Notes under the pieces: generated by a model
Seen by the model: only the letters and a program-made list of their open reading frames with translations
The model's database searches: none
What the model was told of the DNA's origin: nothing
Position numbers and translations under genes: made by a program
Assembly: GCA_038322885.1 (NCBI GenBank)
Contig: JBBQGK010000005.1
Coordinates: forward strand, 1,508-65,507
Source: Bacteriovoracales bacterium
GTDB lineage: Bacteria; Bdellovibrionota; Bacteriovoracia; Bacteriovoracales; Bacteriovoracaceae
Reading direction: 5' to 3'
Length of the DNA: 64,000 nucleotides
Shown here: one piece after another, positions 44,840-58,868 of the stretch
How the letters are laid out: each line of letters begins with the position of its first letter
Position numbering within the stretch: position 1 is the first letter of the stretch

Positions 44840-45991
44840 ATGCGCTATTTAATGCTTGGACTTTTTCTCGTGGGCTGCTCGCAAACTCCACCGCTAAAGT
44901 ACAAATACAGCTCGGCCAAAAAGTATCTCGCCAGTCTCACGCGGGATGATTCTGTGGTCAAAAAAATTGAAGTCGAAATCAAAGATCCCCTCATCTTCGC
45001 AAGTGGCATGGACTCCACCACAATTATTGTGAAACTCTTCGATGATAAAGGTCAGCTCTTAACTGATGTCGATCCTTATGATCTCACCATATCCTCAAAC
45101 GTTGATGTTGAAGCAAAACCATTTTCAATAAAGCAAGGTGTCTACAAGGCCGAGATTCTTCCCCGCGTGAAAAGTCCATCGATGACGATGATGGTGGACT
45201 GGCAGGAAAAAGTATCGAGTCAGGCCTTCATGATAAAGACCACAAAAGCGCCCCTAAAAGATAAAGTTCTTCCGATGAATCATGATTTTTGGGAAACCAA
45301 AAGTTTAGGTGAAGTGAGTGTGACTCGAGGAAGTGCGAGTGCACTTTCTACTTTTGAAGGCTTCTCATTTGAAAACCTTGGCGATAATAAAATCGTTCGA
45401 TCTGAAAAAAATCACCATGCCGCTCGTCACTTTAGTTTTGACTACATCGAGCAAGCGAGACAGAACCTCTCTTTAAGAGTGGATGATATACCGAACTCTA
45501 CGAACTCTCACGGTATGCACTCGCTTTTTATGTTCTTTCCTAGAAAACAAATTTTTCTCCTGGAGCAACTGTCGGGCACCCTTGATGTGACTCTTCCGAC
45601 GGGTGAAAAGATGGTCTTCTCAAAGGACTCAAAAGAGATTGTGGAAGGCGTATTCAGCGAAGGACCTCTGGACCAGACTAAAGAAAAAACAAAACGCAGC
45701 TATGCAAATCTTCAGTACAAGGGAAAGGGCATCATGCTTCGGGCAAATGCTCGCGGACAGTCACCTGAGTTGGGGCAGTTTGAGAAAGAGAAAATTGATG
45801 GAGAGTTTGGAGTGCGGGGATCAGTCGATGTTTTGATTATGAATGGATCTACCGGACAGAGATGTATCAGACCCAAGACTGATTTCTGGGAAAACCTTGA
45901 TGTGATCCCTATCGAATTTAAATTTCCGACGGATGAAGAGTTTGATCTGTATTTGAAAAAGCAATGTGGGTTTGGACTACCTAAGCTTTAA
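44840..45991 (+). CDS. lipoprotein with invasin/Ig-like N-terminal domain and unknown C-terminal domain
   Basis: Lipobox FLVG-C; ASGMDSTTIIVKLFDDKG resembles Big_1 A-D-G-x-D-x-x-T-I-T-V pattern. Confidence 0.6.
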   Translation: MRYLMLGLFLVGCSQTPPLKYKYSSAKKYLASLTRDDSVVKKIEVEIKDPLIFASGMDSTTIIVKLFDDKGQLLTDVDPYDLTISSNVDVEAKPFSIKQGVYKAEILPRVKSPSMTMMVDWQEKVSSQAFMIKTTKAPLKDKVLPMNHDFWETKSLGEVSVTRGSASALSTFEGFSFENLGDNKIVRSEKNHHAARHFSFDYIEQARQNLSLRVDDIPNSTNSHGMHSLFMFFPRKQIFLLEQLSGTLDVTLPTGEKMVFSKDSKEIVEGVFSEGPLDQTKEKTKRSYANLQYKGKGIMLRANARGQSPELGQFEKEKIDGEFGVRGSVDVLIMNGSTGQRCIRPKTDFWENLDVIPIEFKFPTDEEFDLYLKKQCGFGLPKL

Positions 45992-46501
45992 AACATAATC
46001 CTTAATTCTCATCGCCGTGCTGAACATATCTTCTTCGAAGTTCTCATCGGGGTATTCCGTGAGACCCATCATGATCGCAAGTGGGTTAATCGTTTTGTCT
46101 AAAAGTTCTGATTCACCAACAGTGTGAGATGGACAAAAAATCTCAGATGAAATTTCGTGCTGGAAACCAATAAAGAATTGATCACTTCCTTCCTTGAAAG
46201 GAATTAAAACGAGTCTATTGAAGAAAACGTCACCGGTCTTACGGTAATTGATAAGGTCTTGGCAGATGGGCAATTTTTTAGCAATGGCCGTCCTGATTCT
46301 TTGCACGGCCTCTAAATCAGTTTCTTTACCTTGTAGGAATTTACAATTTTGGCCGAGAGACTCTTGGGTAGAATATTTCGTCATTTCAAAAAATGATTGA
46401 TTCACGTAGAGCAATTTATTGCCCTGAAGAGAGGTGTTCACTAACGTGACGGGATTTAAGAACCGCTCACCCATTTTGATGATGCTCTCAAAAATTTTCA
46501 T
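45977..46501 (-). CDS. short LOV-domain blue-light photoreceptor with DHp-like C-terminal extension
   Basis: GQNCKFLQG, QRIR, LINYRKTG, FFN, FIGFQ: flavin-binding residues of LOV domains conserved. Confidence 0.88.
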   Translation of the reverse strand: MKIFESIIKMGERFLNPVTLVNTSLQGNKLLYVNQSFFEMTKYSTQESLGQNCKFLQGKETDLEAVQRIRTAIAKKLPICQDLINYRKTGDVFFNRLVLIPFKEGSDQFFIGFQHEISSEIFCPSHTVGESELLDKTINPLAIMMGLTEYPDENFEEDMFSTAMRIKDYVLKLR

Positions 46502-46887
46502 AGTTTAATCTTTATGAGACGCCAACTCAGAACAAGCCAACCCAAAACAAAAAGCAGCCCACCGACGGGAACGATCATGGCAAAAACTTTGAGACCACTT
46601 AAAACGTAAAAATAACAGTTAAACGAGAAAAGAAGAATGCCAGCGCAGAAGGCCCAGAAGCTTGTGCTTGTATTGAGAGAAGGATATTGATTTTGGATAA
46701 GCCCCAAAATCATCAGACCGAAGGCATGAAAAAAGTGATAGCGAACTCCCGTTTCAAAAGTCACAAGTTTCTCAGGCTCGACCATTGATTTCAATCCATG
46801 AGCACCAAAGGCTCCGATTAAAACCGCGAGAGCCAGCAGTAAGGCACCGATGAGAAGATTACGCCGGGCCAGAAGTTGAGAGGTCAT
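46498..46887 (-). CDS. DUF423 (YgdD/TMEM256) membrane protein
   Basis: IGAFGAHGL, FETGVRYHFFHA, LFSF, VPVGG. Confidence 0.9.
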   Translation of the reverse strand: MTSQLLARRNLLIGALLLALAVLIGAFGAHGLKSMVEPEKLVTFETGVRYHFFHAFGLMILGLIQNQYPSLNTSTSFWAFCAGILLFSFNCYFYVLSGLKVFAMIVPVGGLLFVLGWLVLSWRLIKIKL

Positions 46888-47338: not shown

Positions 47339-48415
47339 TTACGTGAGGTATAGTTTTTTCGAGCTGCCTTCCACACCCTGCCGAATGGTGAGATTTCTTC
47401 CCTTATCAACTCCGAGGCTTCGTGCTCTCTCATCCACAATGCCCCCAGAATGAGAGCTTCCGAGGCGACGGTAAATCAGGCGCACGTCGTGATCAAGTTT
47501 CTTCTCGACGAGGACAAGGGCCTTCTGGTCACTCGGAGAGAAGGAAGCCTTGCTCATCTTCATTTTTTCATCAAAGCCGCGAGCGACTCCAGCGAAAAAA
47601 GAATTCTTGGCCTTGAGTCCCTGAAGATTTTCTTCGGCCTTGACGGTATCCCATAGACGATCAAGCTCTCGGTCCAAGAATTCAGCCACGTAGCGGGCGA
47701 GTTTAACATTGGTCAAAGTTCCTGAAACCTCAAGACAGCATGAGTTTTTTCCAAAAGACAAAACCGGTCGTACGATAAAGTGCCTAAGGATCTCGTAGAT
47801 CGCGACAAGCTTCGCGTCCTTCCGCGGCCGATAGAGAAGACGATCGAGATAGATGGTTTCGAGCTCCTCGCCTTGAATGTGGTCAAGATTATGGCGCAGA
47901 AGGAGTTCGTTGGCCTTCAGGGTCGCAAGCTCGGCTTCATGGGGGTTTGAGCTTTGAGCGAGTTGCAAAAGTTTTTTGACCTTCTCAATCACGCGCTCAG
48001 AAACAAGGTCACCCTCTTTCTTCTCATTACTCATCTCCACGTTCATAGTGGCCGCAGAAATCTCCTGAGGAAAACCAAACTCGAGGCAAGTTGCTCTAAA
48101 TTCTGGTCCATGAGACTGGACTTCGCCATGGCGAATGTAGGTGAGGTAATGAGCGAGTTCGTGTTTGAGGATATCTCTGAGGACAGAATCTTTTGCAGAA
48201 TAAATGAGTTTGAGATTTAGCCCAATCTGCAGATAAGGCGCATTGAAGTGACCAAGTTCAGTGCCCTCAAAAACGACGACGTGGATAGGGTAGAGATAAT
48301 TTTTGCAAAGGAAGCGACTTCGCTTCACCTCAAAGTTAAGGCTTTGTAAGATGTCCTTAACCAGAACTTCACTTCGTTGAATGAAGGCAAGGGTCGTATC
48401 ATTGTAAACAATCAT
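47339..48415 (-). CDS. SprT-like zinc-motif domain + DUF2786 protein
   Basis: LKHELAH...HGPEF; KVKKLLQLAQSSNPHEAELA...LLLRHNL. Confidence 0.82.
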   Translation of the reverse strand: MIVYNDTTLAFIQRSEVLVKDILQSLNFEVKRSRFLCKNYLYPIHVVVFEGTELGHFNAPYLQIGLNLKLIYSAKDSVLRDILKHELAHYLTYIRHGEVQSHGPEFRATCLEFGFPQEISAATMNVEMSNEKKEGDLVSERVIEKVKKLLQLAQSSNPHEAELATLKANELLLRHNLDHIQGEELETIYLDRLLYRPRKDAKLVAIYEILRHFIVRPVLSFGKNSCCLEVSGTLTNVKLARYVAEFLDRELDRLWDTVKAEENLQGLKAKNSFFAGVARGFDEKMKMSKASFSPSDQKALVLVEKKLDHDVRLIYRRLGSSHSGGIVDERARSLGVDKGRNLTIRQGVEGSSKKLYLT

Positions 48416-57476: not shown

Positions 57477-58868
57477 CTAAGATTTTTTGACCACTCCATA
57501 CATCAGCAAACAGCGAGCACGATTTTTCTCGTAGCTTACAATGGGAGCTGGATAATCAGTGACCTTCAATGGATCAGGTCGATGAATTTCTTTTTTCGAG
57601 AGCCCTGCCAGTTCGGGGCACCATACACGAATGAAATCTCCATCTTCGTCGAACTTTTCACTCTGAGTGTACGGGTTAAAAATACGAAAGTAGGGTTGAG
57701 CGTCACAACCGGAGCTCGATGACCATTGCCATCCACCGTTGTTGGCCGCGAGATCAAAATCGAGAAGATTCTGTGCGAAATATTCTTCGCCAAGTCTCCA
57801 ATCAACTAAAAGTATTTTACATAAAAACGAAGCGACAATCATTCTCAATCGATTGTGCATCATTCCGGTAGCGTTAAAACAGCGCATGGTTGCGTCCACA
57901 ATGGGAAATCCTGTTTCTCCCTCACACCATGCTTTAAAGTCGTTGCTTGAACCAAGCCACTTGATCTCATCGTACTCGGGCTTGAAAGCAACTTTTTCAA
58001 GCTGTGGATTTGCATCGAGGATCATCTGATAAAAATCACGCCAGATAAGTTCTGAAAGCCAGGTTTTCGCTCCCTCGTCAGTGTGGTGAAGCGAGGCCTT
58101 GACCATCTCACGGATGGAAAGATTTCCATGACGAATATAAACCGAGAGGAGAGACGTTCCATCAACGGCCGGAAAGTTTCGGGCCTCTTTATAGTCACTC
58201 ATAAGTTGGTCAAAATCTTTGAGACGCTTAATCGCGTGGGATCTTCCTCCGCTCAAGAGGGCAGGAGTTCTCTCAAAGCCTAGTTCTTTGTGCCAGTCGT
58301 GATCGAGAATATTCTTGGGATTTTTACATTTTGCAATTTTTTTGAGGTCACATTGAAAGTCAGAAAGTATTTTTCCCTGCGACGAAAAAACTTCGAGCCA
58401 TCGATTTTTATATGGAGTGAAAACTTTGTAGATACTCTCACTACCAGTTAAGACCTCATGCTTTTCATAGAACACACTATCTTTAAATTGTTCAAACTCA
58501 AATCCCAAGGCCTTGAGTTTTTTTCCAATGAGTCCATCTCTCTTCTTCGCCATTGGCTCATAATCTCTATTGGCGACGACTCTCTTAACTTTTAATTTTT
58601 CAGCAAGCTCTGGAATTTCGATTACCGGATCGCCATAGAGGATGTGGATAGACGATCCCCGCTTTTGAAGTTCTTCTTCTATTTCTTCAAGGGATTCGAT
58701 GATAAAAGTTAGGCGTCTATCACTTTTTGAATTCAATTTTTTTAAGATGTGAGGATCAAAAACAAATACGAGGTGAGTCTCTCCATCTTGGGTCGCATTT
58801 GAAAGGGCAGCGTGATCGTGAAGTCGAAGATCCCGACGGATCCAGCATAGTGAACTCATAGCTGACAT
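57477..58868 (-). CDS. phrB: deoxyribodipyrimidine (CPD) photolyase
   Basis: WIRRDLRLHDH, TSLLSVY, ELIWRDFY, MHNRLRMIVASFL, NNGGWQW, FRIFNP. Confidence 0.93.
   Translation of the reverse strand: MSAMSSLCWIRRDLRLHDHAALSNATQDGETHLVFVFDPHILKKLNSKSDRRLTFIIESLEEIEEELQKRGSSIHILYGDPVIEIPELAEKLKVKRVVANRDYEPMAKKRDGLIGKKLKALGFEFEQFKDSVFYEKHEVLTGSESIYKVFTPYKNRWLEVFSSQGKILSDFQCDLKKIAKCKNPKNILDHDWHKELGFERTPALLSGGRSHAIKRLKDFDQLMSDYKEARNFPAVDGTSLLSVYIRHGNLSIREMVKASLHHTDEGAKTWLSELIWRDFYQMILDANPQLEKVAFKPEYDEIKWLGSSNDFKAWCEGETGFPIVDATMRCFNATGMMHNRLRMIVASFLCKILLVDWRLGEEYFAQNLLDFDLAANNGGWQWSSSSGCDAQPYFRIFNPYTQSEKFDEDGDFIRVWCPELAGLSKKEIHRPDPLKVTDYPAPIVSYEKNRARCLLMYGVVKKS

What the first reader, a model, noticed from the sequence alone, without database searches (positions are those of the whole stretch)
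45977..46501. LOV photoreceptor fused to a His-less, kinase-less DHp: possible light-gated kinase decoy
Seen: an intact LOV core (NCKFLQG with photoactive Cys, both Asn, terminal Gln). The tail ELLDKTINPLAIMMGLTE...MFSTAMRIKDYVLKLR aligns by eye with the two HisKA helices (AHEINNPLAII...RIxxIVxxLR), but the phospho-His position is Asp and the protein stops with no ATPase domain; the reading frame is clean and translationally coupled to the DUF423 gene. Established: short LOV proteins and LOV histidine kinases are known. Inference: this architecture could heterodimerise with a real kinase or bind a response regulator in a blue-light-dependent way. A CPD photolyase and an orphan receiver protein occur elsewhere in the window, but no link is shown.
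Basis: partly seen in the sequence, partly recalled or inferred. Interest (0 to 1): 0.7.

Follow-up and report, generated by a model that had tools for sequence, protein, structure and literature searches.

The report
Short LOV photoreceptor with dead DHp tail
A predatory bacterium (Bacteriovoracaceae) encodes a 174-residue blue-light sensor whose tail is a shrunken histidine-kinase dimerisation hairpin with no phospho-accepting histidine and no ATPase, one of about 76 such proteins that probably signal by light-switched binding rather than phosphorylation.

Summary
ORF 45977-46501 (-) encodes 174 aa. It has an intact LOV core, with Cys53 and all flavin-contacting residues except a conservative Arg-to-Lys change. 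After the core come a non-helical linker and a confident two-helix hairpin.

The hairpin derives from a DHp (HisKA) domain, but the window's own tail does not match HisKA directly:
- Pfam finds nothing in the tail, and HMMER tail profiles find no kinases in the PDB.
- Profile-profile comparison with the genome's own 39 HisKA segments gives 88% probability and places Asp135 on the phospho-His; 100 column shuffles never came close.
- A profile built only from His-less tails ranks five real kinase DHp segments first among 8550 ORFs.
- Relatives bridge the gap. One 193-aa relative passes Pfam's HisKA threshold and keeps the His.

It is not a recent truncation. There are 76 distinct relatives of 151-217 aa, all without an ATPase domain. 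At the His column they carry D 47, E 8, H 7. The kinase-essential acidic residue at +1 is usually Lys/Arg, while the phosphatase-linked Asn/Thr at +4 is kept in 59.

No gene neighbour is conserved. The "decoy" mechanism is untested; light-gated binding in trans, possibly of a receiver domain, is my best guess. I rate it a new variant of a known kind. The closest analogues are the phytochrome HOS domain and RsLOV.

The parts
45977..46501 (-). Whole gene: 174-aa short LOV protein with a DHp-derived tail
   Evidence: ORF list; Pfam PAS_9; PDB LOV matches; AF2 model with pLDDT 95.2 and pTM 0.90
46463..46495 (-). N-terminal A'alpha cap helix, residues 3-13
   Evidence: DSSP on the AF2 model gives H3-13; G11 and F14 are invariant in close relatives
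46151..46450 (-). LOV core, residues 18-117, with NCKFLQG and flavin-contacting Q57, R70, N85, N95, Q114
   Evidence: Alignment to YtvA LOV; invariant columns N34, F37, C53, L56, D82, F93, N95, R96, L99, G112, Q114 across 22 relatives
46343..46345 (-). Codon of the adduct-forming Cys53
   Evidence: Aligned to YtvA Cys62; invariant in 22 relatives
46115..46150 (-). Linker, residues 118-129, mostly non-helical and containing Pro124; not a continuous J-alpha coiled coil
   Evidence: AF2 secondary structure with pLDDT of about 95 in this block; relatives' linkers also contain Pro/Gly
46055..46114 (-). Tail helix 1, residues 130-149: degenerate H-box L-L-D-K-T-I-N-P-L
   Evidence: AF2 H130-149 and the tail-only model; hhalign places it on DHp alpha1
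46097..46099 (-). Asp135 codon (GAC) at the phospho-acceptor His column
   Evidence: hhalign aligns D to H of HisKA; His-bearing relatives have H in this column; the family tally is D 47 of 76
46085..46087 (-). Asn139 codon (AAC) at His+4, the residue that HisKA kinases need for phosphatase activity
   Evidence: Family tally N 54 and T 5 of 76; role in HisKA taken from PMC3510030
45986..46039 (-). Tail helix 2, residues 155-172 (R-I-K-D-Y-V-L-K), equivalent to DHp alpha2; the protein ends 2 residues later
   Evidence: AF2 H155-172; hhalign pairs it with HisKA alpha2; the C-terminus is conserved in the family
46498..46887 (-). Context only: upstream DUF423 membrane-protein gene whose stop overlaps the LOV start (ATGA); not conserved next to orthologues
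   Evidence: Pfam DUF423 at E 5.7e-26; overlap read from the sequence; tblastn finds no copy beside any orthologue

Best explanation
This is a stand-alone (short) LOV blue-light receptor. Its C-terminal extension is a shortened two-helix hairpin descended from a histidine-kinase DHp (HisKA-type) domain. The extension has lost the ATPase domain, the phospho-accepting His (now Asp135) and the kinase-essential acidic residue next to it (now Lys136), so it cannot phosphorylate itself or relay phosphate through a His. The steps from here on are inferred, not shown. The hairpin's broad hydrophobic faces either pair two chains into a DHp-like four-helix bundle or dock on the LOV sheet. Formation of the Cys53-flavin adduct in blue light would change that packing. 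This would expose or reshape the conserved ex-H-box surface (L-D-K/R-T-x-N-P-L), which binds a partner encoded elsewhere. In real kinases that surface is the one that meets the receiver domain, and the Asn/Thr needed for phosphatase action is retained. The partner I consider most likely is therefore a receiver domain, one of the many single-domain response regulators in this genome, bound, sequestered or dephosphorylated in a light-dependent way.
For: The LOV core is intact. The AF2 model is confident (pLDDT 95.2, pTM 0.90) and shows cap helix, core, non-helical linker and hairpin 130-149/155-172. The tail alone also folds as a hairpin, pLDDT 92.

DHp ancestry:
- hhalign of 17 His-less tails against 39 HisKA segments of the same genome gives 88% probability, E 3e-6, score 28.9. 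The 100 column shuffles averaged 8.1 with a maximum of 12.2, and D135 falls on the His.
- The nine closest tails give 65% and score 23.5, against a shuffle maximum of 16.
- An HMM of the His-less tails ranks five genuine HisKA segments as its top five non-self hits among 8550 ORFs (hypergeometric p about 2e-12).
- Bridging relatives exist. P0119 (193 aa, His kept) scores 27.7 bits against Pfam HisKA, above the 26.9 cut-off. The L051 tail reaches E 4e-4. L038, a same-genus Asp form with a full-length hairpin, reaches E 1.2e-3 against the genome's HisKA HMM.

The family is conserved. There are 76 distinct proteins of 151-217 aa, none with an ATPase domain. Residue tallies are D 47, E 8, H 7 at the His column; K/R 50 at +1; N/T 59 at +4; P 63 at +5. 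A match occurs in 31 of 149 other genomes of the same bacterial family.

Residue roles in HisKA come from PMC3510030. Precedent for a kinase-less DHp homologue acting as a light-switched binding module is the RpBphP1 HOS domain (PMC6899989). The genome has 76 receiver matches against 40 HisKA matches, so many regulators lack an adjacent kinase.
Against: No partner is indicated by gene context in any of 21 orthologue loci compared or three further gene maps. The window's own tail is not significant against HisKA by HMMER (Pfam none at E<=10; own-genome HisKA HMM E 0.4-3.7). Tail profiles find no kinase in the PDB. Foldseek on the tail finds only generic hairpins. The conserved Asn-Pro could be retained for structural reasons alone. 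The His column varies across the wider family (D, E, H, T, S, K, A), which argues against one shared chemistry. The hairpin is about 10-14 residues shorter than a normal DHp, which may remove part of the receiver-docking surface. The dimer state, the photocycle and any binding are untested.
Confidence: 0.5

Rival explanations
1. Kinase decoy. The DHp-like hairpin forms a mixed four-helix bundle with the DHp of a real histidine kinase, as RetS does with GacS. This blocks that kinase's autophosphorylation in one light state.
For: The tail is most similar to one subfamily of the genome's kinases, the A-H-E-I-N-N-P-L type (C48, C28, C134, C116, C93, C11, C9). Kinase-kinase interference is established for RetS/GacS (PMC5992135). 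A histidine-kinase gene lies within about 5 kb in 3 of 6 relatives' loci inspected. That is weak, since the genome has about one HisKA match per 90 kb.
Against: The hairpin is 10-14 residues shorter than those kinases' DHp, which would make a mismatched bundle. No particular kinase is a conserved neighbour. There is no HisKA match at all on the window's contig. The best-conserved tail residues (D, K/R, N, P) are the surface-exposed H-box positions rather than bundle-core positions; this is an inference from the heptad pattern.
Confidence: 0.15
2. Ordinary short LOV protein. The hairpin is now only a dimerisation or caging element, as the J-alpha/K-alpha helices are in RsLOV or the HOS domain is in RpBphP1. 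Its partner has nothing to do with two-component signalling and could be, for example, a transcription factor or anti-sigma factor.
For: Foldseek aligns the whole model to RsLOV over 176 columns (4HJ6, 4HIA, 7OB0; TMq 0.64). HOS, the best-documented kinase-less DHp homologue, binds a repressor rather than a receiver. The His column is variable across the family. There are no two-component neighbours.
Against: The ex-H-box is the most conserved stretch of the tail, and Asp135 is invariant in the close clade. That is more than a dimerisation role needs. The tail has no detectable sequence similarity to the RsLOV tail: no RsLOV hit with the tail profiles.
Confidence: 0.3
3. Recent truncation or decaying remnant of a LOV histidine kinase, without a function of its own.
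For: It has DHp ancestry and lacks the ATPase domain.
Against: There are 76 distinct relatives, down to about 30% identity, with the same length and the same C-terminal end. The frames are clean in all 20 genomic loci fetched. No ATPase remnant follows the stop, where a convergent gene lies. The tail is conserved.
Confidence: 0.03

Closest known systems
[quoted passage not shown]
   Same: A photoreceptor output made of a helix-turn-helix that is a distant DHp homologue without a kinase domain. It dimerises as a four-helix bundle, and light changes it so that a partner (PpsR2) is bound in trans (PMC6899989). It is the best analogue for how the protein may work.
   Different: The sensor there is a red/far-red PAS-GAF-PHY-PAS9 module of about 730 aa, not a 120-aa LOV domain. 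The partner there is known and sits in a photosynthesis regulon. No sequence relationship to this tail was tested. Here the ex-H-box keeps a conserved D-K/R-x-x-N-P motif.
RsLOV of Rhodobacter (Cereibacter) sphaeroides (PDB 4HJ3/4HJ6/4HIA, 7OB0), a short LOV protein with a C-terminal helix-turn-helix
   Same: Same size (about 175 aa) and same layout: cap helix, LOV core, two C-terminal helices, no effector. Foldseek aligns it end to end (176 columns, 27% identity, TMq 0.64). Its physiological partner is also unknown.
   Different: The helices do not superpose well (rmsd 7.7 A). Tail profiles do not detect RsLOV. As far as I know, no DHp ancestry has been described for the RsLOV tail. RsLOV comes from an alphaproteobacterial phototroph, not a predator.
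LOV histidine kinases with a HisKA-type DHp (for example the engineered YF1, 4GCZ; natural LOV-HisKA-HATPase_c proteins such as P0264)
   Same: LOV core followed by DHp alpha1 with an H-box and then alpha2. 4GCZ is the top Foldseek hit with 202 aligned columns. His-bearing relatives of this family pass or approach Pfam HisKA.
   Different: There is no ATPase domain, no His and no acidic residue at +1. The hairpin is shorter. The linker is not a continuous coiled-coil J-alpha, and rmsd to 4GCZ is 27 A.
His-less or kinase-dead DHp proteins in two-component networks (DivL with Tyr for His; RetS acting on GacS; the isolated EnvZ DHp, which retains phosphatase activity)
   Same: DHp surfaces used for binding or dephosphorylating partners rather than for autophosphorylation (RetS: PMC5992135; role of His+4 Asn/Thr: PMC3510030; DivL and the EnvZ DHp from my own knowledge).
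   Different: Those proteins keep an ATPase-like domain or are fragments made in the laboratory. None is a natural 174-aa photoreceptor. Asp at the His position is not, to my knowledge, a described state.

Membership tests
LOV domain (flavin-binding PAS subgroup) | PAS fold match | tested here: met
   PAS_9 at 50.6 bits against a cut-off of 27; 154 PDB LOV chains at E<=1, the best at 1.3e-24; Foldseek E 1e-12 to LOV structures
LOV domain (flavin-binding PAS subgroup) | G-x-N-C-R-F-L-Q motif with the adduct-forming Cys | tested here: met
   G-Q-N-C-K-F-L-Q-G with Cys53. Arg is replaced by Lys54, a conservative change also seen in relative P0152
LOV domain (flavin-binding PAS subgroup) | Flavin-contacting Gln, Arg, Asn, Asn and terminal Gln | tested here: met
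   Q57, R70, N85, N95 and Q114 align with YtvA Q66, R79, N94, N104 and Q123
LOV domain (flavin-binding PAS subgroup) | Flavin binding and a reversible 450-to-390 nm photocycle | not testable with these tools
   Needs purified protein and spectroscopy
Short LOV proteins (no fused effector) | No recognised effector domain; only helical N- and C-terminal extensions | tested here: met
   Pfam finds only PAS models in the whole protein and nothing in the tail at E<=10; AF2 shows helices 3-13, 130-149 and 155-172
HisKA / DHp domain (PF00512) | Match to the family model above its threshold | tested here: not met
   No Pfam hit for the tail at E<=10. The whole-genome PF00512 scan finds 40 sites but not this one. 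An HMM of the genome's own HisKA segments gives E 0.41-3.7. Relative P0119 does pass, at 27.7 against 26.9 bits
HisKA / DHp domain (PF00512) | Phospho-accepting His in the H-box | tested here: not met
   Asp135 occupies the His column. Only 7 of 76 family members have His there
HisKA / DHp domain (PF00512) | Antiparallel two-helix hairpin | tested here: met
   AF2 on the full protein and on the tail alone. Foldseek on the tail is uninformative
HisKA / DHp domain (PF00512) | Remote homology at profile level | tested here: met
   hhalign gives 88% (17 His-less tails), 65% (9 closest) and 97.7% (His-bearing tails), with shuffle controls; enrichment of real DHp segments among the top hits. Similarity to HisKA_2 is weaker, at 12%
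HisKA / DHp domain (PF00512) | Homodimeric four-helix bundle | not testable with these tools
   Only monomer prediction is available. The two hydrophobic stripes on each helix are compatible with a bundle (read from the sequence)
Sensor histidine kinase | HATPase_c catalytic domain | tested here: not met
   Absent from the protein and from the 76 tabulated short relatives of 151-217 aa, whose precomputed Pfam columns list none. There is no remnant downstream
HOS-type output (kinase-less DHp homologue on a photoreceptor) | DHp homologue lacking a kinase domain at the C-terminus of a photosensor | tested here: met
   See the rows above; the definition is taken from PMC6899989
HOS-type output (kinase-less DHp homologue on a photoreceptor) | Light-dependent partner binding through the hairpin | not testable with these tools
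   Needs pull-downs or SAXS in dark and light
RsLOV-type short LOV | Sequence similarity of the helix-turn-helix tail | tested here: not met
   Tail profiles A3 and A4 recover no RsLOV chain at E<=10. Only the overall architecture is shared

The most novel reading that the evidence does not exclude
The family is a light-gated auxiliary phosphatase, or a phospho-receiver sink, for response regulators. The kinase-specific residues of the H-box (His and Glu at +1) have been replaced. The Asn/Thr at +4, which HisKA kinases need exclusively for dephosphorylating their regulators, is kept in 59 of 76 members. Together with the invariant Asp it forms an acid-x-x-x-amide pair like the D-x-x-x-Q of CheZ and NarX. 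LOV photochemistry would then switch dephosphorylation of a CheY-like regulator, and so motility or attack behaviour of the predator, on or off with blue light.
Probability: 0.12. Interest if true: 0.85.

Novelty: new variant of a known kind. Interest (0 to 1): 0.55.

Why it matters
Short LOV proteins are common, but for almost all of them the output partner and mechanism are unknown. This family carries a readable clue to its origin: an output hairpin that can be traced back to a histidine-kinase DHp domain and that has lost exactly the residues needed for kinase chemistry. That narrows the search for partners to a testable set, namely the receiver domains and DHp domains of a 3.7-Mb genome. 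It would also be the LOV counterpart of the phytochrome HOS domain.

The protein comes from non-phototrophic predatory bacteria. This genome also carries two BLUF and two photolyase-family genes, so blue light may be a real behavioural cue for these predators, which has not been studied. A natural 174-residue LOV-plus-hairpin module could also interest people who build optogenetic tools around two-component systems.

Tried and rejected
1. Pfam on the isolated tail found no family at E<=10.
2. HMMER profiles of the tail (7 and 14 sequences) against all PDB sequences found no kinase. The top hits were chance N-P-[IL] matches in isopropylmalate dehydrogenases, LL-37 and similar proteins. So the DHp link cannot be shown by profile-to-sequence search.
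3. Foldseek with the tail-only model returned only generic helical hairpins at E>4. Structure cannot discriminate here.
4. Long phmmer alignments that reach query residue 150-160 looked like possible kinase links. They are plant phototropins (Pkinase) aligned over J-alpha only.
5. Ten mid-length hits taken as possible LOV kinases were tandem-PAS proteins with no HisKA.
6. Conserved gene neighbourhood: tblastn of the five window neighbours against 21 orthologue loci gave no hit. Gene maps of six relatives differ completely.
7. Origin from HisKA_2/HWE-type LOV kinases: BLAST alignments to two such kinases do run ungapped into the H-box with D135 on the His. However, profile comparison is much weaker than with HisKA, at 12% against 88%.
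8. The genome-contig scan used a generic LOV motif and mostly returned unrelated LOV proteins. The only near relative was a Bacteriovoracaceae MAG, and no cultured strain was identified.
9. Literature searches for a LOV protein with a DHp-only tail, or for LOV in Bdellovibrio-like organisms, found no description.
10. The scan's earlier notes hold no look-alike sequence.
11. I did not attempt phylogenetic profiling for a partner. Only six genomes carry the close Asp-type form, which is too few.
Full report
THE GENE. ORF 45977-46501 on the minus strand encodes 174 residues. It is the last of four same-strand ORFs: a SprT-like/DUF2786 protein, a 4HBT thioesterase, a DUF423 membrane protein, and then this gene. 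A promoter-like site lies only upstream of the first of these. Its ATG overlaps the DUF423 stop (ATGA). Its stop overlaps by 15 bp the end of a convergent 383-aa lipoprotein gene. A 165-aa database version starts at Met10, but all homologues start at the equivalent of Met1. AF2 also places a confident cap helix at residues 3-13.

THE LOV CORE IS INTACT. Pfam PAS_9 covers residues 23-118 (E 2.5e-13). The best PDB match is the YtvA LOV domain (E 1.3e-24), followed by phototropin, Brucella LOV-HK and others. In that alignment every residue that contacts the flavin or takes part in the photocycle in YtvA is present: C53, Q57, R70, N85, N95 and Q114. The single exception is a conservative Arg-to-Lys change in the NCRFLQ motif.

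THE TAIL IS A HAIRPIN, NOT A J-ALPHA HELIX. AF2 with a 22-sequence alignment gives pLDDT 95.2 and pTM 0.90. It predicts a mostly non-helical linker at 118-129 (containing Pro124), helix 130-149, a short loop, and helix 155-172. The tail alone, modelled from a 7-sequence alignment, folds the same way at pLDDT 92. Each helix carries two hydrophobic stripes (read from the sequence). That is more than a lone hairpin needs, and it fits either a four-helix-bundle dimer or docking on the LOV sheet. I could not inspect coordinates and cannot say which.

IS THE HAIRPIN A DHp?

Direct tests on the window's own tail fail:
- Pfam finds nothing at E<=10.
- A whole-genome PF00512 scan finds 40 sites but not this one.
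- An HMM built from the genome's own HisKA segments gives E 0.4-3.7.
- HMMER tail profiles retrieve no kinase from the PDB.
- Foldseek on the tail finds only generic hairpins.

Three other lines do support descent from a HisKA-type DHp:
- Profile-profile comparison. I used hhalign against an alignment of 39 HisKA segments from the same genome. The 17 His-less tails give 88% probability, E 3e-6 and score 28.9. The nine closest tails give 65% and score 23.5. Asp135 falls on the phospho-His, Asn139 on His+4, and the R-I-x-x-Y-V-L stretch on alpha2. One hundred column shuffles gave mean scores of 8.1 and 9.4 with maxima of 12.2 and 16.0, and reversed sequences scored 9.6.
- Specificity. An HMM of the 17 His-less tails was searched against all 8550 six-frame ORFs of the genome. 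Its top five non-self hits all lie exactly on the HisKA segment of a real kinase (hypergeometric p about 2e-12), although each E-value is marginal at 0.05-0.3.
- Intermediates. Distant short relatives keep a textbook H-box with His (E-I-R-H-H-I-N-N-P-L and similar) and a full-length hairpin. P0119 (193 aa) scores 27.7 bits against Pfam HisKA, above the cut-off of 26.9. The L051 tail reaches E 4e-4 and P0155 reaches 0.018. L038, from the same genus, has Asp at the His column but a full-length hairpin, and reaches E 1.2e-3 against the genome's HisKA HMM.

Similarity to the HisKA_2/HWE type is weaker, at 12%. Even so, BLAST alignments to two such LOV kinases run ungapped from the LOV core into the H-box, with D135 on their His. 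I conclude that the tail is a degenerate DHp, shortened by roughly 10-14 residues, with about 0.85 confidence. It is not a member of HisKA by that family's own criteria.

NOT A RECENT TRUNCATION. The word-indexed search found five relatives at 46-53% identity, all 172-185 aa. An exhaustive phmmer search and a profile search raised this to 76 distinct proteins of 151-217 aa. None has an ATPase domain, and those that carry a source name come from Bacteriovoracaceae or Bdellovibrionales metagenome-assembled genomes. Among 149 other genomes of the same bacterial family, 31 hold a match (all but one in an open frame of about 175-250 aa). Within the same genus the figure is 4 of 25.

Residue tallies for the family:

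| Column | Residues |
|---|---|
| His position | D 47, E 8, H 7, others 14 |
| His+1 | K 32, R 18, E 8 |
| His+4 | N 54, T 5, D 7 |
| His+5 | P 63 |

In HisKA kinases the acidic residue at +1 is required only for kinase activity. The Asn/Thr at +4 is required only for phosphatase activity. The His itself is dispensable for phosphatase activity in some kinases (PMC3510030). So the kinase residues are gone and the phosphatase residue remains. This could be meaningful, or it could be a structural leftover of the Asn-Pro kink.

CONTEXT GIVES NO PARTNER. None of the window's five neighbouring genes occurs beside any of 21 orthologue loci. Gene maps around six relatives differ completely. The only suggestive item is a relative flanked by two short BLUF genes. 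The DUF423 coupling is therefore local. The genome as a whole has 40 HisKA and 76 receiver matches, many of the latter in single-domain ORFs.

MECHANISM. What is shown: an intact light sensor, a DHp-derived hairpin unable to carry phospho-His, and family-wide conservation of the ex-H-box. What is inferred: the protein acts in trans, and light changes how the hairpin is packed and so what it binds.

The closest worked example is the HOS domain of bacteriophytochrome RpBphP1. It is a kinase-less DHp homologue that dimerises as a four-helix bundle in one state and binds the repressor PpsR2 in the other (PMC6899989). RsLOV shares the overall layout and aligns end to end in Foldseek, but its tail is not detectably similar.

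The conserved surface here is the one that faces the receiver domain in real kinases. I therefore favour a receiver as the partner, through binding, sequestration or dephosphorylation. None of these can be decided with the tools at hand.

NOVELTY. I found no paper describing a LOV protein with a DHp-only tail, or any LOV protein in Bdellovibrio-like organisms. The scan's earlier notes hold no look-alike sequence. Short LOV proteins and kinase-less DHp outputs are each known, so this is a new variant of a known kind. It is a small and coherent family, and its mechanism is testable.

Noticed in passing
window 58383-58853 (-); own genome C11:47542-47979, C11:15252-15524, C9:19960-20226: This non-phototrophic predator genome carries a fuller blue-light gene set than expected. 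Besides the one LOV gene it has two BLUF matches (open frames of 137 and 199 aa) and two photolyase/cryptochrome-family genes, one of them in the window.
   Followed up: partly
L004:2946-3350 and L004:9011-9442: In one metagenomic relative, the LOV-hairpin orthologue (L004:3493-4014) sits 143 bp downstream of a 134-aa BLUF gene, and a second 143-aa BLUF gene lies 5 kb further on. That is a cluster of small flavin photoreceptors.
   Followed up: no
window 47339-48415 (-): A 358-aa protein combines SprT-like zinc-protease, DUF2786 and DUF7168 matches. It heads the four-gene same-strand array that ends with the LOV gene, and a promoter-like site and a terminator-like hairpin lie just upstream.
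   Followed up: no
window 44840-45991 (+): A 383-aa predicted lipoprotein (L-V-G-C lipobox) has no Pfam match at E<=1. Its 3' end overlaps the LOV gene's 3' end by 15 bp in convergent orientation.
   Followed up: no
window 46859-46887: The thioesterase and DUF423 ORFs overlap by 29 nt as listed. The true DUF423 start may be a later codon.
   Followed up: no
own genome C35:15927-16127 (-): A histidine kinase of the A-H-E-I-N-N-P-L subfamily has an in-frame TGA inside its HisKA segment. It may be a pseudogene, an assembly error or a recoding site.
   Followed up: no
own genome C11:35206-37119, C48:14026-15872, C116:1536-6347, C9:55636-56603: Kinases of the A-H-E-I-N-N-P-L subfamily, the ones most like the LOV tail, tend to sit next to single-domain (CheY-like) receiver ORFs of about 125-160 aa. 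These pairs are the first candidates to test as partners.
   Followed up: partly
P0193 (174 aa, metagenomic relative): One family member combines the short hairpin of the Asp clade with a retained His (E-I-L-H-N-L-I-N-P-M). Hairpin shortening and His loss were therefore separate events.
   Followed up: no
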